Shown: piece by piece, positions 478-7,738 of the stretch | Numbering within the stretch: the first letter of the stretch is position 1 | Layout: each line of letters starts with the position of its first letter | From: a virus | Lineage: Duplodnaviria; Heunggongvirae; Uroviricota; Caudoviricetes | Reading direction: 5' to 3' (one strand) | DNA: 7,738 bases | Virus record (IMG/VR): IMGVR_UViG_2802429219_000018 | Made by a program: the position numbers and the translations under genes | Notes under the pieces: generated by a model | What the model saw: the letters and a program-made list of their open reading frames with translations, nothing else | Databases searched by the model: none | Told to the model about the DNA's origin: nothing

Positions 478-2616
478 CTATTCATCCAGTTCATCATCCA
501 TAAGTAATGCATACGCTCTTAACTGCTTACCGTTCAGATGCTTTATTCTGGGTGTTCTTGTTTGCCACCCTTTACCACTTGAAGGGCGTTTAAGCATATT
601 TGCCCCATGAAGCACACTTGCAGCATGGTTTGCATCAAATCCACTTGCCACCTCGGCTTTAAAAACAGCCGGAAGAACATAAAAAGTTATAGCATCATCA
701 AGGTTTGATTTTCCTTTATTTTTATAACCAGCAAGGTTATGAATACTCATCTGGCTCAATTCATCAAAATCAACAGGTACAAAACGACTAATGCTATTTG
801 CTGTAAGAAATGATGTTGCCTGCTCAATAATCTGCTCGTTTTCCTTATTGCCTGTCCCGAACTCAGCCACCCATACATTAAAAACATGCTGTAACGCATC
901 TCGACACGCTAATGAGTCCCATCCAGTAATATGTTCAGAAAGCAGCATTGCACATTCCATAACTGCAAAACGATCCTTTACTCTATGAACTTGCTCGCCG
1001 TAATGTTGCGGAATAAGAGAATCCCATCGCTCTAACGCTCGTTTATAAGCCTCCTTCGCTTCCTGTTGATGATCTGCAAGCCATCTGATCCACTCACGAC
1101 CCGCCGCGCCATAATTTTCTTTCCATGCTGCTTCCAGTGCCTTCGCATGTTTCTCTCCATTTTCGTATCCATGAAATTCAGTTGGTCGAGATACAGGGAT
1201 ATTCAGTAATCTAACGAGCTGTCCAGCTTTTACTTTGATTCCTGCTCCAGCGAGAAAAGTTTCAATACTTTTCTCTCCTGTACTGATAACAACCGTTTCG
1301 AAATATTTAATTTCACGGTTCCCACCATCAGGACTTCCCTGTAATTTCCCTTTTCCATTAAAAAGAGTATAAGACGACGTAAATACACTTCTGGCACTGG
1401 AAGCCTGCTCTATTTCATCAAGAGCCAATAAACAGTGATTATGTGATTCTGCTTCGTTAGTTATACCCAACGCCGTTCCATACCAGGAAAGCCGTTGTTG
1501 TTTTGGAATTCCATACAGACTTGAGGCAAAATCTTCCGCAGTTGTTTTTCCCGCTGTACTTTGCGCATACAGATGCACACCAAAGCCATCAGCACCAATA
1601 ACACCAATCAGCGGGGCTGCCAGTGACGTAGCAGCCGCCAGCATCTGAAACGGGTTTTTATATGCCAATTTTGCAACATTCTCGCGCCAGCTTTCAGTAG
1701 TTCCTTTTACGCGATAAGCCAGCCTTGAGGCACTTCCTCCGGTAAACATAACTGGGGTTTCAGGCTCACCAATAACATCACCATTTGGCATGATGTAGAT
1801 GCCACCAAACCACCCGGAACGTTGTGTAGCCGTATACTGTAACCCTTTCTGAGCTTCATTCTGTATCCAGTCAGATAGAAGCTCTCTGGCCTTATTTTGT
1901 GTAGTAATTTTTAATCCCCAGTCTTTAAGGCGTGACCATCCCTGAGGGGTTCCAATCATTCCGGCTCTAATACAATGAGTAACCATTTCCCCCCTGAATT
2001 TCCAGCGTAAAGCAATAAACATTGCGTCATTTTCTCTATCAAATCCTTCGCCTAACACTTCCAGAGGTGAGCACATCCATTGACCATGGCGGGTTATCTC
2101 TCCTGAACGTTCAATTTTTGGGGTAACCCAGTACATACCTACTGGATCCGCATTTATACGCAATTCAACGTAAGGCGCCAGTTCATCGCGTGCCTGATTA
2201 CTTGCAGATTGCACAATATCCGTCATCGACACTTCTCCGCTCTCTACCTGTTCACGGATCCGTTGCAAGTAGTCGCGCCAGTTCTCCGGCTCCCGGTCGG
2301 TGATGCCTTTGTATAATTTCGCATCCTGTACGCCAGCCAGCGCCAGCTTTTCAGCAATAGCGTTGATCTGAATTGGCTCCATTTCCCCCGCGATATAAAC
2401 ACGCGCAAAGCGGCGCTCATCGTCAATAATGCGGATATTCGCCAGGTCTGCCAGTTGCTTTGGCCCCAGGTAAACAGGTGGTACGTTATCGCCGTGTTTT
2501 CGTCCTTCGCTTTCAATCCAGTGTTGAGCATGGGAGTAAGCGTCCGTCCCGGCAAAAATGATTACCTCGGTGAATTTATCCTTCGGCTGATATTTTAAAT
2601 TCGGTGCGTTTTTCAC
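478..2616 (-). CDS. P4 alpha-like replication protein of the primase/SF3-helicase family, 712 aa. The N-terminal region is Toprim-like (VIIFAGTDAY). The central NTPase carries Walker A (AQSTAGKTTA) and Walker B (HCLLALDEIEQ). The C-terminal part is a putative origin-binding domain.
   Basis: It is a long uninterrupted ORF. The start is a GTG with a strong SD (GGGAGGT) about 8 nt upstream, and it overlaps the upstream gene's stop as GTGA. Walker motifs are read in the translation. Gene order (small genes, then replication gene, then iterons) matches the P4 left operon followed by crr. I do not see the EGYATA primase motif that I recall from P4 alpha. Confidence 0.9.
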   Translation of the reverse strand: MKNAPNLKYQPKDKFTEVIIFAGTDAYSHAQHWIESEGRKHGDNVPPVYLGPKQLADLANIRIIDDERRFARVYIAGEMEPIQINAIAEKLALAGVQDAKLYKGITDREPENWRDYLQRIREQVESGEVSMTDIVQSASNQARDELAPYVELRINADPVGMYWVTPKIERSGEITRHGQWMCSPLEVLGEGFDRENDAMFIALRWKFRGEMVTHCIRAGMIGTPQGWSRLKDWGLKITTQNKARELLSDWIQNEAQKGLQYTATQRSGWFGGIYIMPNGDVIGEPETPVMFTGGSASRLAYRVKGTTESWRENVAKLAYKNPFQMLAAATSLAAPLIGVIGADGFGVHLYAQSTAGKTTAEDFASSLYGIPKQQRLSWYGTALGITNEAESHNHCLLALDEIEQASSARSVFTSSYTLFNGKGKLQGSPDGGNREIKYFETVVISTGEKSIETFLAGAGIKVKAGQLVRLLNIPVSRPTEFHGYENGEKHAKALEAAWKENYGAAGREWIRWLADHQQEAKEAYKRALERWDSLIPQHYGEQVHRVKDRFAVMECAMLLSEHITGWDSLACRDALQHVFNVWVAEFGTGNKENEQIIEQATSFLTANSISRFVPVDFDELSQMSIHNLAGYKNKGKSNLDDAITFYVLPAVFKAEVASGFDANHAASVLHGANMLKRPSSGKGWQTRTPRIKHLNGKQLRAYALLMDDELDE

Positions 2617-2903
2617 TTCTTACCTCCCGCAACCAACATTGCCCGGATTTTTTTAATATTCGTGGCTGCACGTCTCGCCACCGCCTGTTGTTTGTTTTCC
2701 ACCAGAATAAAATCACGCTCAAACTGACGGCGCGGCATTACGCAGTCATATTCGTAAGCCTCACGGCGGTAGGTGATATTGCCTGGCGTAACGTGACGAA
2801 TAACCACTCGTCCCCCACGTCTGGTGTCGCGGTAAATATCTCCGTGTCTGATTTCAGGCCGAGAGAGACCGCTGGCAGTAAAGCCAGAATTTTTCTTTTT
2901 CAT
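2613..2903 (-). CDS. Hypothetical basic 96-aa protein, translationally coupled to the replication gene. It occupies the position of P4 epsilon/orf151.
   Basis: The ATG is preceded by an AGGAAA SD. Its stop is TGA and overlaps the GTG start of the downstream gene. The overlapping plus-strand ORF at 2604..2948 has no such signals. The C-terminus is lysine/arginine-rich. Confidence 0.6.
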   Translation of the reverse strand: MKKKNSGFTASGLSRPEIRHGDIYRDTRRGGRVVIRHVTPGNITYRREAYEYDCVMPRRQFERDFILVENKQQAVARRAATNIKKIRAMLVAGGKK

Positions 2904-2907
2904 GGTT

Positions 2908-3108
2908 TTATTTTCCTGTCAGCAGTTCCGGTTTTATTCCTGCACTAATACAGAGTTCAGAAAAGCCTTCTGCCGTACTTACAATTTCATTATTTCGCAG
3001 CCGGCATTGTGATTTCACTTTCCCTTTATCCAGGTAAACCAGTATGCGTCCGGTGAAATCCTCTGGCACATTCAGGGTAATTGTCATTGTTGCTGGCTTA
3101 TTACCCAT
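2908..3108 (-). CDS. Hypothetical 66-aa protein. It is a single-module paralog of the adjacent 122-aa protein, with an FTGRILV...G.V...E.F.EL...AGIKP module.
   Basis: Its ATG overlaps the upstream stop by 8 bp (ATGGGTAATAA). The shared motif lines up residue for residue with the first half of the 122-aa protein. Confidence 0.6.
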   Translation of the reverse strand: MGNKPATMTITLNVPEDFTGRILVYLDKGKVKSQCRLRNNEIVSTAEGFSELCISAGIKPELLTGK

Positions 3109-3469
3109 GGTTCACCCCCCCCTGAATGACCTGATAACCGCAACTGGTCAGCAATTCGATAAATTCCGGCAGTGTGCCGAAACAGCAATCATCACGCAGC
3201 CGTTCGCGGGATACCTCGACGCCGTTTTCGTAGTGACTCACCATGCGTCCGGTAAAATGCAGATCATCATCGTGATGGCACGTTAACGGCTTAATCAGTC
3301 GCGCACGTTCCGCCAGTTCCAGCAATGCTTCAACGCTTCCGGCAATTGCACCATCCGGCAGGTGGTAATTACGCACTATGCGCCCGTTCTCCACATTGAC
3401 CAGCAACTGCCCGGTAAATTTCTCGTCAAACTGAATGCTGTTAAGGTCAGAAATTGACAGGTTATGCAT
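3101..3469 (-). CDS. Hypothetical 122-aa protein made of two tandem copies of the ~45-aa FTG module (F18-T19-G20...IKP60 and F72-T73-G74...).
   Basis: Its ATG overlaps the upstream gene's stop (ATGCATAA). The internal duplication is visible in the translation. Confidence 0.65.
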   Translation of the reverse strand: MHNLSISDLNSIQFDEKFTGQLLVNVENGRIVRNYHLPDGAIAGSVEALLELAERARLIKPLTCHHDDDLHFTGRMVSHYENGVEVSRERLRDDCCFGTLPEFIELLTSCGYQVIQGGVNHG

Positions 3470-3665
3470 GGTGCACCTCCTGGCGAATACGGGCAGCGAA
3501 TACCATCACGCAGCCATCAGGAGATTGCTGACGCGCTTCCTGTTCGCTGATGGCCTCGATGTGAATTACGCGCGGTTGTGCCGTACTCAGGGCGATAAAA
3601 CGCCAGATATATTTATTCAGGTTGTGCGAGTCCCGCCCTTGCGGGTGTGTGGTATGATTTCTCAT
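3462..3665 (-). CDS. 67-aa small protein (MRNHTTHPQGRDSHNLNKYIWRF...). It is the first gene after the leftward promoter, the position P4 kil occupies. By recalled family pattern it resembles the Icd-like host cell division inhibitor small proteins of P4-like elements.
   Basis: This is the C-terminal portion of the 331-aa track ORF. The rest of that ORF runs antisense through the operator/promoter region and the RHH gene, so it is not credible as coding. The internal ATG at 3665 has a GAGGT SD 6-7 nt upstream. The family assignment is from memory of similar annotations and is not verified. Confidence 0.55.
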   Translation of the reverse strand: MRNHTTHPQGRDSHNLNKYIWRFIALSTAQPRVIHIEAISEQEARQQSPDGCVMVFAARIRQEVHHA

Positions 3666-3757
3666 AGCTACCTCGATACTGTTGCTATCGTTGGTGGTTA
3701 GAAGCCCGGTTAGTGTTAGCGCACTGCCGGGTTTCGTCGTTTTTATGAATCGATCAT

Positions 3758-3870
3758 TGTGAGATACATAGTCATCACAATGTGAGATATACATTATATT
3801 GTGGTGATATACATTGCAAGTGTTTTTATATCTCACTTTTGTGTATAGTGATATACACATAACTAATTGG
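3758..3870. promoter_or_regulatory. Divergent promoter/operator region carrying five copies of a GTGAGATATACAT-like motif, at 3758-3769, 3781-3794, 3804-3814, 3827-3836 (reverse) and 3848-3860. Candidate leftward promoter: -10 TATAAT at 3798-3793 and -35 TTGCAA at 3819-3814, with a 15-nt spacer. Candidate rightward promoter: -35 TTGTGT at 3839-3844 and -10 ACTAAT at 3862-3867.
   Basis: The repeats are read directly. The promoter hexamers were matched by eye. The spacer is suboptimal on the leftward side and the hexamers are weak on the rightward side. The operators overlap both candidate promoters. Confidence 0.5.
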
Positions 3871-3879
3871 TGATTAACT

Positions 3880-4182
3880 ATGTCTGTATACAAAAATGCA
3901 AAATCGCAAATGACAACGATCAGGGTTCCCCACGATGTTATGGAGGGTATGGAATCCGTAAAACTGGACGGCGAAAGCAACGCCGGATTCATAGTAACCG
4001 CCATGCGTGGTGAGATCGCCCGCCGCCAGGCAGAAGGAAGAGGAGAAAATCCCCTGGTTTCTTCGCTCGATGCACTGGCGCAGGTGGAAAAAATCGGAGT
4101 CAAAGCAGCCGAGGAGATCGGGCAGCTCGTCACCGTCGCGCGTGAAGAACTCCAGCGCCGCAAGGCCAAAGAACAGGAGTAG
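3880..4182 (+). CDS. 100-aa ribbon-helix-helix-like transcriptional regulator, a candidate immunity repressor. The N-terminus reads TTIRVPHDVMEGMESV...NAGFIVTAMRGEIARRQ, a beta-strand followed by two helices. The C-terminal tail is charged and coiled-coil-like.
   Basis: It is the only credible plus-strand gene. A GGTGA SD lies 6 nt before the ATG. The N-terminal pattern matches the Arc/MetJ/CopG RHH fold by eye. The gene sits immediately beside an array of tandem operator repeats, which is typical for RHH repressors. Confidence 0.65.
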   Translation: MSVYKNAKSQMTTIRVPHDVMEGMESVKLDGESNAGFIVTAMRGEIARRQAEGRGENPLVSSLDALAQVEKIGVKAAEEIGQLVTVAREELQRRKAKEQE

Positions 4183-4401
4183 TTGATCAGCACCGGGCAA
4201 CCAGAAAAAATCGTATCAGTCGCGCTACCAGCAAAATTTTTTGCTTTCCGGACAGCGTGGCCAACGGCATTTTGCAGCAAAATATTCTGCATTTCTGGCG
4301 TGCTGTAGTAACGGTGATCAGCGCCTTCACATTGAACGAACTTGTCGCTAAAATTCACCCATATAGCAAACATCGCGGTGCTACAGGTAATTCGTTCACA
4401 A

Positions 4402-4434
4402 AGGCGCTCCGGCAACGGGGCGCTTTCTCTTTTT
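4402..4434 (+). terminator. Intrinsic terminator. Stem GCGCTCCG (4404-4411), loop GCAA, stem CGGGGCGC (4416-4423), then TTTCTCTTTTT.
   Basis: An 8-bp GC-rich stem with one G-U pair, followed by a T-run on the plus strand. On the minus strand the same stem is followed only by CUUUGUG, which would make a weaker terminator for the antirepressor transcript. Confidence 0.55.
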
Positions 4435-4449
4435 GTAACGGTCAGAGCG

Positions 4450-5250
4450 TTACACATGGCTGTTTTCCTCCATGCGACGGGCTAACCAACGCTGCGAAAG
4501 ACGAATTAATTCAGCTTTCCGCTGGTGGTAGTCCTGGCCTAACTCAATCAGCGTGATATTGCTCTGCTCAAGGTAAGAAAGGTGCTCAAGCTGCAATGTG
4601 CTCATGTGGTCGCGTGGTTCGCCTGTGATGTCGTTCGCCTGCGCCCACTGTTTTGCAGTCATGCCACCCAGCACGATACGCGCCAGCATGTTCGCTTCCG
4701 TGGTGTAGTGGTGCTGGAGTGTGTTTTTACCCAGTTCAGCCCGGTACGCCTCCAGCGCGGCACACATTGGCTTAAAGTAGCTGGCAACTGTGATACGGGC
4801 TTTCAGTTCCCGGCGTAACGCTGCGGAACGCACTGGCGCTACCTTGTGTAGCTCCTCCTCGCATTTGATGAAGTACTGACGAACGGCGCGGCCCTGTTCG
4901 GTGCGTTCGACCATCGCCAGTTCTTTCGCCATGTTGATAGTGCTCAGGTAGTCGTGCTCTATACGTTGGCGAGATTTTGCGCTCACCGGATTGGGGGAGG
5001 TCAAATTTTCTACGAATTCAAAATCCACGCCCTTTTTAAATCCGTACTCATCAATGCGTCCTTTAATCCAGGTTGTGAAATCACGGCCTACCCCGAGCGC
5101 CTTATGCAACGCTCTGGCGCTAACAATATTGGTTTCACGCCCGCCAATAACGCCGGAAATAACCGGGATAATTTCGCCAAAATTTTGCAGATTCTGGTTT
5201 TCAGGCCGAACGAAGCCCTGCCCCTGTACGGGCGTTTTTGGAAATTTCAT
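4450..5250 (-). CDS. AntA/AntB-domain phage antirepressor-like protein, 266 aa.
   Basis: The N-terminal half (ARALHKALGVGRDFTTWIKGRIDEYGF...HDYLSTINMAKELAMVERTEQGRAVRQYFIKCEE) matches the AntA/AntB antirepressor N-domain pattern as I recall it. It is a clean ORF with an ATG start. Confidence 0.8.
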   Translation of the reverse strand: MKFPKTPVQGQGFVRPENQNLQNFGEIIPVISGVIGGRETNIVSARALHKALGVGRDFTTWIKGRIDEYGFKKGVDFEFVENLTSPNPVSAKSRQRIEHDYLSTINMAKELAMVERTEQGRAVRQYFIKCEEELHKVAPVRSAALRRELKARITVASYFKPMCAALEAYRAELGKNTLQHHYTTEANMLARIVLGGMTAKQWAQANDITGEPRDHMSTLQLEHLSYLEQSNITLIELGQDYHQRKAELIRLSQRWLARRMEENSHV

Positions 5251-5327: not shown

Positions 5328-5525
5328 TCAGGTAGCTGTTCCGCGTGATTCCGCAATACGCTGATTAATCCACTCGTCAATTTCACTCTCAACGAAAGCA
5401 ATCGCTCGCGAGCCAATTTTTACAGGTTTAGGAAAACGCCCTTGGGCAATGAGTTTATAGATCCATGCCCTGCCATAGCCTGTACGGCGCATGGTTTCTG
5501 GCATACGAATTAAAGATTGTGACAT
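5328..5525 (-). CDS. AlpA/Vis-family small DNA-binding regulator of the excisionase/transcriptional-regulator type, 65 aa. It uses the internal ATG of the 88-aa track ORF.
   Basis: It carries the family motif RTGYGRAWIYKLIAQGRFPKPVKIGSRAIAFVESEIDEW. The ATG at 5525 has a GGGAGA SD 8 nt upstream. The longer 88-aa form would have to start inside the palindromic operator region. Confidence 0.8.
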   Translation of the reverse strand: MSQSLIRMPETMRRTGYGRAWIYKLIAQGRFPKPVKIGSRAIAFVESEIDEWINQRIAESRGTAT

Positions 5526-5591
5526 GATAATCGTCTCCCGTTGTTTATTGATGCCTACGGGAGACATTGAAGCAGGTAAGACATTGGATAT

Positions 5592-5628
5592 CACCGCAAT
5601 TGCGGTGAATGATACCGCAATTGCGGTA
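5592..5628. promoter_or_regulatory. Two perfect 16-bp palindromes, CACCGCAATTGCGGTG (5592-5607) and TACCGCAATTGCGGTA (5613-5628), 21 bp apart centre to centre. Read as a putative dimeric-regulator operator in the alpA-like promoter region.
   Basis: Read directly from the sequence. They sit 70-100 bp upstream of the AlpA-like start and directly downstream of the stop of the 251-aa gene. Confidence 0.5.
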
Positions 5629-5639
5629 TAGGACTACAA

Positions 5640-6395
5640 CTACGATTTAATTGATTTATTGGCTTCAGCAAACTTTGCTTCCAGCGTTCTTGAACTCATC
5701 CCCGGCTTACCTTCAAAATGTCCCAATAAATTACTAATAATAGAGCTTTGATTTTCGAATACAGATTGCTTAATACCAGCAGGTGAACGCCCTAACATTA
5801 GAAAAAGCAACCCTCCAATAATGTTTAAATATGTTGTTTCAGAACGTTGGTCAATGTTTTGCACGGAGTTATCAACCATTCGTCGTAGTGAATCACGTTC
5901 CCCTTGTAATTCGGAAATTTCATTTTTCTGCTGTTGGAAAGTCTTCATAGCATTATCTAAGCGAATATTAAGACGTTTGTTTTCAGCCTGAAGAGTTTGA
6001 TATGCCTCGACTGTAATTCCAGCATGTAACTGCTGCTCAACAGCATCAAAAAGGAAAGCTGGTTTTTGGTTGGGATAGTTTTTTGACATCCATGATTTCA
6101 GATCGGAATGGCGGACGGTTAAACGGTGCTTAGCAACCTGTTCTCCAGGTTGAACAGTTTTACCATCACGGCCATAAGGAATTTCACAATTATGGATTGC
6201 ATCTAAAATTTTCTCAGCATTAACACGCAAGCAAGGCCATTGAGGGAACATTCCAACGCTAGGTAAAACTCCATCTCCCACTCGCTCCAATATTAAAACT
6301 TCATGAGCAATTAAATTACACCAACGTAGCGCCGCTTCAATTGGAGTGTAATATGCCTTTTCAAGAGAACTACAGCTTTTTGAATTGTAAGTCAC
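5640..6395 (-). CDS. Hypothetical 251-aa cargo protein. It has an N-terminal globular domain, a central coiled-coil-like segment (QTLQAENKRLNIRLDNAMKTFQQQKNEISELQGERDSLRR) and a hydrophobic stretch (YLNIIGGLLFLMLG) that could be a transmembrane or amphipathic helix.
   Basis: It starts on GTG with a GAGGT SD 8 nt upstream and has no internal ATG nearby. The gene is visibly AT-richer than the flanking int and alpA-side genes. Confidence 0.7.
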   Translation of the reverse strand: MTYNSKSCSSLEKAYYTPIEAALRWCNLIAHEVLILERVGDGVLPSVGMFPQWPCLRVNAEKILDAIHNCEIPYGRDGKTVQPGEQVAKHRLTVRHSDLKSWMSKNYPNQKPAFLFDAVEQQLHAGITVEAYQTLQAENKRLNIRLDNAMKTFQQQKNEISELQGERDSLRRMVDNSVQNIDQRSETTYLNIIGGLLFLMLGRSPAGIKQSVFENQSSIISNLLGHFEGKPGMSSRTLEAKFAEANKSIKS

Positions 6396-6523
6396 TCTGT
6401 GCTACCTCGCACCCTCTGTAAAAGTGGCTGTGCCAGCCCGCAGAGGTGTACGGGTTTTCAGGAGCGACCCTAGACACAGCCTTTTCTTAATCGCTCAAAG
6501 TCTACTACTGTATACTCAACCAG

Positions 6524-7738
6524 TCACCCGCATTTTCCGAACTCACCATGCACCACATTTCCGCCATGCTCGAGCGAATCCATATAATCGGCGTACCACT
6601 GAAGCATTTCCCGCCGTCCATCCAGATATTGCGCATGGTTGTATGTGCCACGAATTGAGTTTTTATCGACGTGTGCGAGCTGCGTCTCTATCCATGCGGT
6701 GTTATAGCCCTGCTCATGCAAAATGGTGCTCATGGTGTGCCGGAATCCATGACCAGTAACCTTTCCGTTATAGCCGATGCGTTTAAATACTTGGTTTATG
6801 CTAGCCTCGCTCATTGTTTTCCTTGGATCATTACGGCCGGGAAACATAAGCGGATAATTGCCAGTTAATTCTTTAATCTGCCCAATAAGAGAAAGAGCCT
6901 GCTTAGACAAAGGCACCACATGAGGGCGACGCATTTTCATCCGTGAAGCAGGTATCTCCCAGATAGCCTTGTTGAGATCGATTTCATCCCATAATGCACC
7001 GCGCAGTTCGCCAGTTCGCAAACCAGTGATAATCAGTAGACGAGCCGCCATAACAACCAATGCACTTCCTGAGTAACTGGACAATGCCTTGAAAAAATCA
7101 GGCAATTCTTTGGCTGTGAGGAAAGGATAATGATTAGATTCATGGCCTTGCATCGCGCTAGTAAGATCTGGGGCAGGGTTATACTCTGCGCGACCAGTGA
7201 CTATTGCATAGCGGAAAACTTCCCCACACCGCTGCCTCACTTTTTTGGCTTTTTCTGTAGCACCGCGCCCCTCGATGCGTCGCAGCACATTCAGAAGTTC
7301 AAGTGGTTTGATTTCGGCGATTGGTTTTTTGCCAATGTAAGGGAACACATCTTTGTTGAAGGCTTCGAGGATGTCTGAAGCATAACCAGCAGACCATTTT
7401 TTTAATTTGCTGCTGTGCCACTCAAGGGCAATATCTTTGAAGGTGTTGTTTAACTGCGTTTCCCGGGCAATCTTTTCCTCTCGTTTCGCTTCCATCGGAT
7501 CGATACCCCCAGCGATACCCCTTTTAGCTTCTTCACGTTTTGCACGAGCATCAGCCAAGGTAACTTCAGGATACACACCTAGTGCTAACAGCTTCTCTTT
7601 ACCAGCTACACGATACTTGAAGCGCCAATATTTTCCTCCACTAGGTTTTACCAAGAGATACAGACCACCACCATCAGCCAGCTTGTAAGCCTTCTCTTTT
7701 GGCTTGGCAGTGTCTATTTGACGGGCATTGAGTTTCAC
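6524..7738 (-). CDS. int: P4-family tyrosine integrase. The start lies at or just beyond the right window edge.
   Basis: The N-terminal domain (KLNARQIDTAKPKEKAYKLADGGGLYLLVKPSGGKYWRFKYR) matches the P4-integrase arm-binding pattern. The C-terminus has HGFRHT (H-x-x-R) and GTYNHAQYL, which carries the tyrosine nucleophile. The first codon in the window is a GTG at 7738..7736. Confidence 0.9.
   Translation of the reverse strand: MKLNARQIDTAKPKEKAYKLADGGGLYLLVKPSGGKYWRFKYRVAGKEKLLALGVYPEVTLADARAKREEAKRGIAGGIDPMEAKREEKIARETQLNNTFKDIALEWHSSKLKKWSAGYASDILEAFNKDVFPYIGKKPIAEIKPLELLNVLRRIEGRGATEKAKKVRQRCGEVFRYAIVTGRAEYNPAPDLTSAMQGHESNHYPFLTAKELPDFFKALSSYSGSALVVMAARLLIITGLRTGELRGALWDEIDLNKAIWEIPASRMKMRRPHVVPLSKQALSLIGQIKELTGNYPLMFPGRNDPRKTMSEASINQVFKRIGYNGKVTGHGFRHTMSTILHEQGYNTAWIETQLAHVDKNSIRGTYNHAQYLDGRREMLQWYADYMDSLEHGGNVVHGEFGKCG

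What the first reader, a model, noticed from the sequence alone, without database searches (positions are those of the whole stretch)
2908..3469. Triplicated ~45-aa FTG module across two overlapping small genes
The 122-aa protein is two tandem copies of a module, and the adjacent 66-aa protein is a single copy of the same module. The consensus is FTG[RQ][ILM][LV]V..[DE][NK]G.[VI]V...........[ST].E.F.EL...[AC]G. The 66-aa protein aligns residue for residue with the first half of the 122-aa protein (FTG at 18-20, IKP at about 58-61). The genes overlap by 8 bp. This suggests a recent duplication or fusion history, and perhaps heteromeric assembly. They sit in the operon position where P4 has eta/epsilon-type helper-interaction genes.
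Basis: seen in the sequence. Interest (0 to 1): 0.5.

Follow-up and report, generated by a model that had tools for sequence, protein, structure and literature searches.

The report
Triplicated small module in satellite operon
Two overlapping small genes in a phage-satellite island carry three old, diverged copies of an uncharacterised ~50-residue protein module; they are real genes that can be swapped in and out, they sit where satellite P4 keeps its helper-derepression gene, and their function is still unknown.

Summary
The 122-aa gene (3101-3469, minus) holds two copies of a ~50-aa module and the 66-aa gene (2908-3108, minus) holds one. The genes overlap by 8 bp. The similarity is far above chance, and PHROG 340 matches all three copies. 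Both genes are under purifying selection (dN/dS about 0.23 and 0.48).

The window is an Enterobacterales PICI/P4-type satellite with this gene order: int, AlpA, AntA, Icd-like, 122 aa, 66 aa, DUF4222, primase-helicase. The two genes lie in a variable array of small genes. Every gene in the array is joined to the next by the same 8-bp start/stop overlap.

The duplication is not recent. The three modules belong to three old subfamilies, and the two-module fusion is conserved in Hafnia, Cedecea and Serratia. The two genes also occur without each other, which argues against an obligate 122+66 complex.

The predicted fold is a beta-hairpin plus a helix. It has no match in Pfam, PDB or BFVD, and only a weak MORN-like motif. 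Conserved fusions to Bro-N and to a DnaG-type zinc ribbon suggest a protein-binding adaptor. Function is inferred, not shown. The best guess is that these proteins bind helper-phage or host proteins when the island is induced.

The parts
3101..3469 (-). 122-aa gene, a tandem two-module protein (N-type + C-type module)
   Evidence: ORF listed. The same gene is called in GCA_002965785.1. phrog_340 matches it in 2 stretches, E=1.2e-29. dN/dS is 0.23 over 32 distinct alleles.
3275..3469 (-). Module copy 1 (aa 1-65 of the 122-aa protein; FTG at aa 18-20)
   Evidence: HMM domain i-E=1.7e-22. It groups with the N-halves of two-module proteins and with 70-aa single-module proteins. dN/dS is 0.25.
3119..3259 (-). 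Module copy 2 (aa 71-117 of the 122-aa protein; FTG at aa 72-74)
   Evidence: HMM domain i-E=2.4e-21. It groups with the C-half of the Cedecea two-module protein. dN/dS is 0.145.
2908..3108 (-). 66-aa gene, a single module (copy 3; FTG at aa 18-20)
   Evidence: ORF listed. phrog_340 E=1.2e-16. HMM i-E=1.8e-30. The AF2 model has pLDDT 74, with strands 21-27 and 30-37 and a helix at 46-55. dN/dS is 0.48.
3101..3108 (-). 8-bp start/stop overlap ATGGGTAA between the 122-aa and 66-aa genes (translational-coupling junction)
   Evidence: Read from the sequence. Every junction of the array in more than 100 related loci has the same ATGNNTRA design, and so does P4.
3462..3481 (-). Junction between the Icd-like gene and the 122-aa gene: Shine-Dalgarno AGGAGG (3476-3481) inside the Icd-like C-terminal codons, then the 8-bp overlap ATGCATAA (3462-3469)
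   Evidence: Read from the sequence. CAGGAGGTGCACCATGCATAA is the commonest junction upstream of this gene type. P4 has GGAGGTGTCCCGTGCGTAA at cI137/epsilon.
3115..3122 (-). Run of 8 G (coding strand) in the last codons of the 122-aa gene, which also serves as the ribosome-binding stretch for the 66-aa gene
   Evidence: Read from the sequence. In relatives the run is 5-10 G, and its length decides whether the two-module gene ends normally, ends early, or is fused in frame to the next cassette.
3249..3256 (-). TTTACCGG (the Phe-Thr-Gly codons) of module 2. It is a direct repeat of the same 8-mer at 3411-3418 in module 1, 162 nt (54 codons) away
   Evidence: Read from the sequence. Natural 67-aa proteins join module 1 to module 2 exactly at FTG (P0046, P0047, P0049).
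3411..3418 (-). TTTACCGG of module 1 (partner of the repeat at 3249-3256)
   Evidence: Read from the sequence.
3462..3665 (-). Icd-like gene (67 aa), the first gene of the operon and the upstream neighbour
   Evidence: NCBIfam NF033153 phage_ICD_like, E=6e-19. Called as a 67-aa gene in the assembly. Its C-terminus is like the P4 'cI 137 aa' ORF.
2613..2903 (-). DUF4222 gene (96 aa, pI 10.9), the downstream neighbour
   Evidence: Pfam PF13973, E=1.4e-19. The order icd - FTG - DUF4222 is kept in Hafnia-type elements.
478..2616 (-). Primase-helicase (712 aa, DUF927), the last gene of the coupled operon
   Evidence: Pfam PF06048, E=7.9e-45. It overlaps the DUF4222 gene by 4 bp.

Best explanation
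Shown:
- The two genes encode three copies of an uncharacterised ~50-residue module (PHROG 340). The predicted fold is a beta-hairpin (FTGRxLVxxENGxV...) followed by an alpha-helix (TLxxFxELAxxAGY).
- They are genuine protein-coding genes under selection, in the early operon of an Enterobacterales PICI/P4-type phage satellite.
- The junctions have the form expected for translational coupling, in the chain Icd-like -> 122 aa -> 66 aa -> DUF4222 -> primase-helicase.
- They are two cassettes of a variable array of small genes. The cassettes are exchanged, lost, fused and internally recombined between related islands.
- The array fills the slot that in P4 holds epsilon (the anti-repressor of the helper P2) and orf151.
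- The three modules are old paralogues, and the 122-aa protein is an old, conserved two-module fusion.

Inferred:
- One module is too small to fold alone. It probably works as a dimer, so the two-module protein would be a built-in pseudo-dimer and the 66-aa protein a homodimer.
- The module has no catalytic motif or known DNA-binding motif. Elsewhere it is appended to a Bro-N domain or to a DnaG-type zinc ribbon. I therefore think it is a stoichiometric protein-binding adaptor or inhibitor.
- It would be made when the island's early operon is switched on. It would bind a helper-phage or host protein, in an epsilon-like, anti-repressor-like or host-takeover role. Different cassettes would carry different target specificities.
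For: The module is real and triplicated.

Purifying selection acts on both genes.

Operon structure:
- The overlaps are 8 bp, 8 bp and 4 bp, with the Shine-Dalgarno sequence inside the upstream gene's tail.
- The scan found no terminator-like site inside the two genes and two weak promoter-like matches near 2956-3018. Totals for the scanned region were close to the shuffle expectation: 3 promoter-like sites against 2.6 expected, and 4 terminator-like sites against 2.4.

Cassette behaviour:
- More than 10 architectures are seen between icd-like and DUF4222 in about 180 fetched loci, many from the same contigs.
- 9 of 51 elements with a homologous replicase N-domain have no FTG module at all.
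- Each of the two genes occurs without the other.

The P4 slot and junction are the same. Epsilon/Ash inactivates the helper repressor (PMC8628076).

Fusions:
- Bro-N + module is seen in P0163 and in genes in the nin region of lambdoid prophages.
- CHC2 zinc ribbon + module is conserved at 79-90% identity in 11 loci, in the same slot after icd-like. In the protein database this fusion is named from Citrobacter.
- Module - cas74-like - module occurs in one chain, P0170.

The two-module form is conserved across genera.

Fold: hairpin + helix in both AF2 models.

Experimental lead: in E. coli ECOR61, a six-gene Icd-like ... primase locus causes cell death when a phage accessory gene is expressed. 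Tn5 suppressors map to the Icd-like gene and to the two small genes right after it. The first of those two overlaps the Icd-like gene by 8 bp (bioRxiv 10.1101/2023.04.06.535777).
Against: - There is no direct evidence for any binding partner.
- The 122-aa AF2 model has low confidence (pLDDT 45), and no multimer prediction was possible.
- Fusions in this array can arise simply from adjacency plus a frameshift in the poly-G junction. 'Guilt by fusion' is therefore weaker here than usual.
- E. coli PICIs of this general type are described as being induced by the helper through AlpA, not as inducing it (PMC6092414). An epsilon-like derepressor role is not required by their known biology.
- The ECOR61 small genes are 61 and 63 aa. 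I could not show that they are FTG modules, and Tn5 insertions may be polar.
- The wider family sample is seeded by the module itself, so the frequencies are biased.
Confidence: 0.4

Rival explanations
1. Replication accessory. The modules would be adaptors of the island's own primase-helicase, for example recruiting it or a zinc-ribbon domain to the origin or to the host replisome, and would work only with the replicase.
For: - They always lie just upstream of DUF4222 and the replicase, with coupling-type overlaps to them.
- The CHC2 DnaG-type zinc ribbon + module fusion is conserved in 11 loci.
- In the close relatives examined (DUF4222 and a replicase ORF found in 60 of the 71 loci), the adjacent replicase N-terminal ~120 aa is the same even though the helicase part differs.
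Against: - The same array goes with three unrelated helicase bodies: DUF927, DUF5906/D5-like and RepA-like.
- In Hafnia-type elements it goes with a replicase that has a different N-terminus.
- 9 of 51 elements with a homologous replicase N-domain lack the module.
- The module also occurs fused to Bro-N in lambdoid nin regions, away from any primase.
- In L074 no primase gene follows the zinc-ribbon fusion within the fetched DNA.
Confidence: 0.2
2. Modulators of the neighbouring toxic or regulatory genes. The acidic 122-aa protein (and/or the 66-aa protein) would neutralise or tune the Icd-like division inhibitor or the very basic DUF4222 protein. The early operon would then act as a self-limiting or abortive-infection module.
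For: - The order icd-like - module - DUF4222 is conserved from Escherichia to Hafnia.
- The charges are opposite: 122 aa is -7.9, DUF4222 is +13.7 and icd-like is +2.
- In ECOR61, suppressors of cell death fall in the Icd-like gene and in the two small genes after it, and all six linked genes were needed to rebuild the effect.
- The DUF4222 protein RgdR is a regulator in EHEC (PMC10877973).
Against: - DUF4222 occurs without the module (L266).
- The module occurs without DUF4222 in Citrobacter-type arrays and in lambdoid prophages.
- No PADLOC defence model matches any gene of the operon.
- Homology of the ECOR61 small genes to this module is unverified.
Confidence: 0.15
3. Anti-defence proteins. 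These would be small, fast-swapping inhibitors of host immune systems, expressed early to protect the replicating satellite and/or its helper.
For: - They are small and mostly acidic: the family median pI is 5.7 and the 122-aa protein has pI 5.2.
- Presence and absence vary like cassettes, and the position in the operon is early.
- The 66-aa gene evolves faster (dN/dS 0.48).
- The genes lie in accessory regions, such as the nin region, in prophages.
Against: - There is no similarity to any known anti-defence protein or fold.
- tblastn finds nothing in 50,697 GenBank phage records, whereas known anti-defence genes are usually common in virulent and temperate phages.
- Overall selection is purifying, not diversifying.
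Confidence: 0.12
4. One reading: a recent duplication or fusion whose products (122 aa + 66 aa) form an obligate heteromer.
For: - The genes are adjacent and have a coupling-type overlap.
- In the largest class of arrays the two types co-occur.
- Their net charges are weakly complementary.
Against: - The modules are only 30-36% identical to each other and belong to three old subfamilies.
- Orthologous halves in Hafnia, Cedecea and Serratia are closer to each other than the paralogous modules within this window are.
- Each gene type is found without the other in 20-30% of sampled arrays.
Confidence: 0.06

Closest known systems
P4 epsilon (Ash family, PF10554) and P4 orf151
   Same: They occupy the same operon slot, directly after the Icd-like ORF and before the small pre-primase gene and the primase. 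They use the same 8-bp ATGNNTRA/GTGNNTAA overlap, with the Shine-Dalgarno sequence inside the upstream gene's last codons. They are small, non-enzymatic, satellite-specific proteins. Epsilon works by binding a helper protein, the P2 repressor (PMC8628076).
   Different: There is no detectable sequence similarity. Epsilon and orf151 are single-copy and not modular. No anti-repressor activity has been shown for the FTG module. The island here is PICI-like (AlpA, AntA; relatives carry PerC, ProQ/FinO and DUF2213). No P4-type sid, delta or psu was seen, although the window ends at the primase.
PHROG 340 (and phrog_2512); Pfam accession PF27490 precomputed on two 121-aa homologues
   Same: Both window proteins are members by profile match: E=1.2e-29 with two stretches, and E=1.2e-16. 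PF27490.1 is listed for P0022 and P0024.
   Different: These are catalogue entries with no function. PF27490 is not in the Pfam copy available here, so its name and boundaries could not be checked.
MORN repeat variant (PF07661, MORN_2)
   Same: The hairpin FTGRxLVYxENGxVKSE resembles one MORN_2 unit (...YYENGQVKSKxTxKDG...). The family profile picks up MORN_2 proteins through many short stretches.
   Different: hhalign probability is only 20%. No family member reaches the Pfam MORN_2 threshold. Each FTG module has a single hairpin followed by a helix, not an array of 23-residue repeats. This is a resemblance of motif, not demonstrated homology.
C-terminal target-binding domains of Bro-N / Ant-type phage proteins
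   Same: An FTG or FTG-like module forms the C-terminal domain of Bro-N proteins: P0163, and the genes in L105, L107 and L125, which lie in lambdoid nin regions.
   Different: Here the module stands alone or is duplicated, with no Bro-N domain. The island's own AntA protein (4450-5250) has no such module. The function of those Bro-N fusions is also unknown.
ECOR61 Icd-like ... primase six-gene locus that causes programmed cell death when a phage accessory gene is expressed (Silas et al., bioRxiv 10.1101/2023.04.06.535777)
   Same: The locus has an Icd-like gene followed by small hypothetical genes and a DNA primase. By the published coordinates, the first small gene overlaps the Icd-like gene by 8 bp. 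The small genes matter for the phenotype, since Tn5 suppressors fall in them.
   Different: Polar effects are possible.

Membership tests
PHROG 340 (uncharacterised phage/satellite protein family) | Significant match to the family profile | tested here: met
   122 aa: E=1.2e-29, 2 stretches. 66 aa: E=1.2e-16.
Internal tandem-repeat protein (two-module fusion) | Two non-overlapping domains of the same family in one chain, with significant self-similarity | tested here: met
   HMM domains at aa 1-65 and 71-117. Half vs half gives E=7e-6 and z=8.3.
P4 epsilon / Ash family (PF10554) | Sequence match to the Ash/epsilon profile or to P4 epsilon | tested here: not met
   No Pfam hit at E<=0.1. phmmer with --max against P4 epsilon gives E about 0.6-0.9, with negative scores.
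P4 epsilon / Ash family (PF10554) | Position directly after the Icd-like ORF in the early (left) operon, joined by an 8-bp overlap | tested here: met
   Window junction at 3462-3469. P4 junctions at 8168-8175 and 7888-7895.
P4 epsilon / Ash family (PF10554) | Binds and inactivates the helper prophage repressor | not testable with these tools
   Needs a binding or derepression assay.
MORN_2 repeat (PF07661) | Reaches the Pfam gathering score; several consecutive ~23-residue repeats | tested here: not met
   No MORN_2 hit for any of 38 family members. hhalign probability is 20% over 35 columns. There is one hairpin per module.
Obligate two-gene (122 + 66) complex | The two gene types always co-occur | tested here: not met
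   20 of 67 arrays have the two-module gene without the 66-aa type. About 14 of 59 arrays have the 66-aa type without the two-module gene, one of which carries a single N-type module gene.
Real protein-coding genes (as opposed to chance ORFs) | dN/dS clearly below 1 in the annotated frame; conserved length and junctions | tested here: met
   dN/dS is 0.23 (122 aa) and 0.48 (66 aa), against 0.22 and 0.21 for the neighbouring genes. Junctions are conserved.
PICI / P4-like phage satellite (context of the genes) | Integrase, AlpA regulator and primase-helicase, all in one orientation, next to a chromosomal attachment region | tested here: met
   int 6524-7738, AlpA 5328-5594, DUF927 replicase 478-2616. 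int-alpA RNA RF02996. The island abuts proB-proA.
PICI / P4-like phage satellite (context of the genes) | Packaging or capsid-redirection module (PICI) or sid/delta/psu (P4-like) | tested here: inconclusive
   The window and its source contig end just after the primase. Close E. coli relatives carry ProQ/FinO, PerC and DUF2213 genes there, and no sid, delta or psu is annotated.
Known anti-phage defence or anti-defence proteins | Match to a PADLOC model or to a solved or predicted structure of a known inhibitor | tested here: not met

The most novel reading that the evidence does not exclude
The FTG modules, together with the other small cassettes in the same array, would be interchangeable specificity subunits of the satellite's early operon. 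Each would recognise a particular helper-phage or invading-phage protein. They would either derepress the helper (a new anti-repressor family, unrelated to Ash/epsilon) or couple phage sensing to the Icd-like toxic effector, as the ECOR61 cell-death locus suggests. Cassette swapping at the conserved 8-bp junctions would then be the way satellites retarget to new phages.
Probability: 0.18. Interest if true: 0.65.

Novelty: new variant of a known kind. Interest (0 to 1): 0.38.

Why it matters
Phage satellites of Enterobacterales are very common. A megablast match to this 1.15-kb stretch is present in 1262 of 5426 complete E. coli genomes. Even so, the small genes between the Icd-like gene and the primase are all annotated 'hypothetical'.

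This work shows three things:
- These small genes form a cassette array with a fixed junction design that is shared with P4.
- One cassette type is an Enterobacterales-wide module family with no known fold or function.
- The array fills the slot of P4's helper-derepression gene.

If the modules prove to be target-specific binders, they would help explain how satellites match or switch helpers, or how they sense invading phages. They would also give a set of small natural protein binders. If they have no phenotype, the result is still a useful annotation of a widespread family. The finding is descriptive, and no mechanism has been demonstrated.

Tried and rejected
- **Protein family libraries.** Pfam and NCBIfam scans of both proteins and of 38 family members gave nothing. 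PADLOC gave nothing.
- **Solved structures.** PDB sequence searches with the single proteins and with the family profile gave only chance-level hits: designed armadillo repeats and RNF4.
- **Structure prediction.** The AF2 model of the 122-aa protein has pLDDT 45. It is usable only for secondary structure.
- **GenBank phages.** tblastn of the 122-aa protein against 50,697 phage records found no match.
- **Genome scans.** Genome-contig scans with the 122-aa protein and with P0170 found no confirmed locus. The family alignments were too divergent for pattern-based locus search. P0170 was not found in IMG/VR.
- **P4 proteins.** Homology to P4 epsilon, orf151 and orf106 was tested and rejected.
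- **MORN.** Homology to MORN repeats is only a weak motif resemblance.
- **Internal signals.** Promoter-like and terminator-like sites in the scanned region were no more frequent than expected by chance.
- **Other ORFs.** The 80-aa ORF on the opposite strand (3044-3286 +) and the 331-aa ORF (3462-4457 -) were judged not to be genes. Selection and the public gene calls support the 122/66/67-aa frames.
- **Literature.** Searches for the family (phrog_340, PF27490) found nothing. The PICI papers read here assign no function to these genes.
Full report
**1. The observation**

The window carries, all on the minus strand:
- an integrase (6524-7738);
- a 251-aa unknown gene (5640-6395);
- AlpA (5328-5594);
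- an AntA-type protein (4450-5250);
- an Icd-like gene (3462-3665);
- the 122-aa ORF (3101-3469);
- the 66-aa ORF (2908-3108);
- a DUF4222 gene (2613-2903);
- a 712-aa DUF927 primase-helicase (478-2616).

A YlcI/YnfO gene (3880-4182) lies on the plus strand, divergent from the operon. The 122-aa and 66-aa ORFs overlap by 8 bp (ATGGGTAA), and the Icd-like gene overlaps the 122-aa ORF by 8 bp (ATGCATAA). The public assembly that holds this exact sequence is GCA_002965785.1, contig PTSA01000029.1. It calls the same genes and places the island next to proB-proA.

**2. Is the triplication more than chance?**

Yes.
- BLASTP gives E=3e-6 (66 aa vs first half of the 122-aa protein), 5e-6 (66 aa vs second half) and 7e-6 (half vs half).
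- Smith-Waterman scores are 8.3-10.1 SD above 5000 shuffles, and no shuffle reached them.
- The independent profile phrog_340 matches the 122-aa protein twice and the 66-aa protein once.
- An HMM of the wider family finds exactly three copies in six-frame translation of the window and nothing else.

Both AF2 models give the same secondary structure for each module: a beta-hairpin (residues 21-27 and 30-37 of a module) and a helix (46-55). The 66-aa model is moderately confident (pLDDT 74). The 122-aa model is not (pLDDT 45).

**3. Are both ORFs genes?**

I collected 67 related loci from IMG/VR with the 122-aa protein, 59 more with the 66-aa protein, and three annotated E. coli loci.

| Gene | Pairwise Nei-Gojobori dN/dS |
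|---|---|
| Two-module gene, whole | 0.23 |
| First module | 0.25 |
| Second module | 0.145 |
| 66-aa gene | 0.48 |
| DUF4222 | 0.22 |
| Icd-like | 0.21 |

Both ORFs are therefore under purifying selection, and the 66-aa gene is less constrained.

**4. What the surroundings show**

Between the Icd-like gene and DUF4222, related islands carry from one to five small genes in many combinations. The cassette types are:
- a 74-aa helical protein (MCN...);
- the two-module FTG gene;
- a 77-aa protein (MRDDRF...);
- another 77-aa protein (MRDIYHET...);
- the 66-aa FTG gene;
- others.

Every junction has the same design. A purine-rich Shine-Dalgarno sequence sits inside the last codons of the upstream gene, followed by ATG-NNT-RA, where TAA or TGA is the upstream stop codon. 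This is why the upstream genes end in ...HA...HG or ...VQ, and why the downstream genes start with MHN, MCN, MRD or MGN. The scan found no terminator-like site inside the two genes. Promoter-like and terminator-like sites in the scanned region were close to the number expected by chance. The genes are therefore most likely one translationally coupled operon ending in the replicase.

Modules per array were 3 in 46 loci, 2 in 20 loci and 1 in one locus of the first sample. In the sample seeded with the 66-aa gene, about 14 of 59 arrays lack the two-module gene. In a sample seeded with the replicase N-terminal 120 aa, 9 of 51 elements have no FTG module at all. The cassettes are therefore individually dispensable, and the two genes of the finding are not an obligate pair.

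**5. Dynamics inside the genes**

The protein database holds many in-frame hybrids of the two-module protein (67, 73, 80-91 aa). In these, module 1 is joined to module 2 at equivalent positions. The 67-aa form is joined exactly at FTG. There the window has the 8-nt direct repeat TTTACCGG (3411-3418 and 3249-3256), 54 codons apart.

The 3' end of the two-module gene is a run of G. It has 8 G in the window (3115-3122) and 5-10 G in relatives. Its length decides whether the gene ends with the normal overlap, ends early, or is fused in frame to the next cassette. The 196-203-aa fusion proteins are examples. I cannot exclude that some of this variation comes from homopolymer sequencing errors.

**6. 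Age of the duplication**

A profile search of 1.84 billion representative proteins found 102 clusters at E<=1e-3. Most are 60-90-aa single-module proteins. Several are two-module proteins. Named members come from Escherichia, Salmonella, Citrobacter, Hafnia, Cedecea, Serratia and Dickeya.

In a neighbour-joining tree of modules:
- the window's first module groups with the first modules of the Hafnia, Cedecea and Serratia two-module proteins;
- the second module groups with the Cedecea second module;
- the 66-aa protein groups with a separate '...IKPExLTGK' subfamily.

In Hafnia-type elements the two-module gene sits in the same place: icd-like, 8-bp overlap, two-module gene, DUF4222, replicase. 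The fusion and the three paralogues are old, not recent. The tree is rough because the sequences are short.

**7. Comparison with P4**

In the P4 record the ORF annotated 'cI gene product (137 aa)' has an Icd-like C-terminus. It overlaps epsilon by 8 bp, and epsilon overlaps orf151 by 8 bp. The junction sequences (GGAGGTGTCCCGTGCGTAA and ...ATGTTTGA) follow the same design as here. The FTG genes therefore occupy the epsilon/orf151 slot. [quoted passage not shown] There is no sequence similarity between the FTG module and epsilon, orf151 or orf106.

**8. Clues to what the module does**

No Pfam, NCBIfam or PADLOC model matches. No PDB sequence, solved fold or BFVD model matches either. tblastn finds nothing in GenBank phage records.

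The hairpin resembles a single MORN_2 repeat. The family profile pulls in MORN_2 proteins through many short matches, but hhalign gives only 20% probability.

Three fusions are informative, with a caveat:
- **CHC2 zinc ribbon + module.** A DnaG-type CHC2 zinc ribbon followed by one module is conserved at 79-90% identity in 11 loci, in the same slot after icd-like. In the protein database this fusion is named from Citrobacter.
- **Bro-N + module.** The protein P0163 carries a Bro-N domain followed by an FTG module. FTG-like versions of this fusion occur in lambdoid prophages, and the one inspected (L105) lies in the nin region.
- **Module - 74-aa cassette - module.** One protein (P0170) contains all three in a single chain.

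The caveat is that neighbouring cassettes in this array fuse easily. Even so, the zinc-ribbon and Bro-N fusions are conserved. The module travels with different replicase bodies and with different replicase N-termini.

One experimental lead comes from E. coli ECOR61. There, a six-gene locus of an Icd-like gene, small genes and a primase causes cell death when a phage accessory gene is expressed. Tn5 suppressors fall in the Icd-like gene and in the two small genes after it. The first of those overlaps the Icd-like gene by 8 bp. I could not obtain those sequences, so I do not know whether they are FTG modules.

**9. Verdict**

The 'recent duplication' and 'heteromer' ideas are not supported. The genes belong to an uncharacterised family found across Enterobacterales in satellites and prophages (PHROG 340).

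My best mechanistic reading has moderate-to-low confidence. The module is a small dimerising protein-binding unit, and the cassettes act as stoichiometric binders of helper-phage or host proteins when the early operon is expressed. The rivals are a replicase adaptor, a modulator of the Icd-like or DUF4222 neighbours, and an anti-defence protein. The evidence does not exclude any of them. The finding is a solid annotation with a testable lead, not a demonstrated new mechanism.

Noticed in passing
window 6412-6480 (-): Rfam int-alpA RNA (RF02996), 49.8 bits against a gathering score of 35.8. It lies between the integrase gene and the 251-aa gene.
   Followed up: no
window 3666-3738 (+): A SymR-antitoxin-like match below threshold (RF01809, 32.9 bits against a gathering score of 61, E=0.003). 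It lies antisense to the leader immediately upstream of the Icd-like start codon (3665). It could be an antisense RNA controlling the toxic first gene, or it could be chance.
   Followed up: no
window 3115-3122 (run of 8 G on the coding strand); relatives L004-L070: The homopolymer at the end of the two-module gene varies from 5 to 10 G among relatives. Its length toggles between separate genes, an early stop and an in-frame fusion with the next cassette (196-203-aa proteins). It may be a slippage hotspot or partly a sequencing artefact.
   Followed up: partly
window 478-2616 (-); L001, L016, L062: The replicase is a mosaic. The same N-terminal ~120 aa (MKNAPNLKYQPKDKF...) is joined to three different bodies. 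These are DUF927 (710-712 aa, as in the window), a 582-604-aa form that RefSeq annotates as 'DNA primase family' or DUF5906, and a 465-471-aa form that is probably the one RefSeq annotates as 'helicase RepA family'.
   Followed up: partly
L001 6274-6498 and 6849-7082 (reverse-complement coordinates used); absent from the window: Most relatives carry two further cassettes that the window lacks: a 74-aa and a 77-aa acidic, probably helical protein, flanking the two-module gene. A 240-aa protein (P0170) has module - 74-aa-like segment - module in one chain, with BLASTP E=4e-10 for the middle part.
   Followed up: partly
window 3462-4457 (-): The 331-aa ORF is an artefact of a long open frame. The real Icd-like gene is the last 67 codons (3462-3665). 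RefSeq annotations of relatives give it 67, 123 or 158 aa. The 'long N-terminal extension' mentioned for the ECOR61 Icd-like protein may have the same cause.
   Followed up: partly
window 2613-2903 (-): The DUF4222 neighbour is very basic (pI 10.9, +13.7). A DUF4222 protein, RgdR of EHEC O-island 51, is reported to activate type III secretion through Ler (PMC10877973). The neighbour may therefore be a regulator rather than a replication protein.
   Followed up: no
L226 (P4, NC_001609) 7888-7895 and 8168-8175: P4's 'cI 137 aa' ORF, epsilon and orf151 are joined by the same 8-bp overlap design as the cassettes here. The cassette-junction architecture is thus shared between P4 and PICI-type islands.
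   Followed up: yes
L166 1-5374 (context of the window in GCA_002965785.1): The island is integrated next to frsA, crl, a porin gene, proB and proA. The source contig ends about 480 bp past the primase, so the packaging or late part of the island is missing from the window.
   Followed up: no
window 5640-6395 (-): The 251-aa gene between int and alpA has no family match. It gives only weak coiled-coil-type hits around residues 117-186. RefSeq calls its counterparts hypothetical.
   Followed up: no
L105 4989-5540 and 6052-6300: In a 46-kb lambdoid prophage contig, a Bro-N protein with an FTG-like C-terminal domain lies about 500 bp from a separate 82-aa FTG-like gene. Both are in the nin region, upstream of genes that look NinG-like and Q-like by inspection.
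   Followed up: partly
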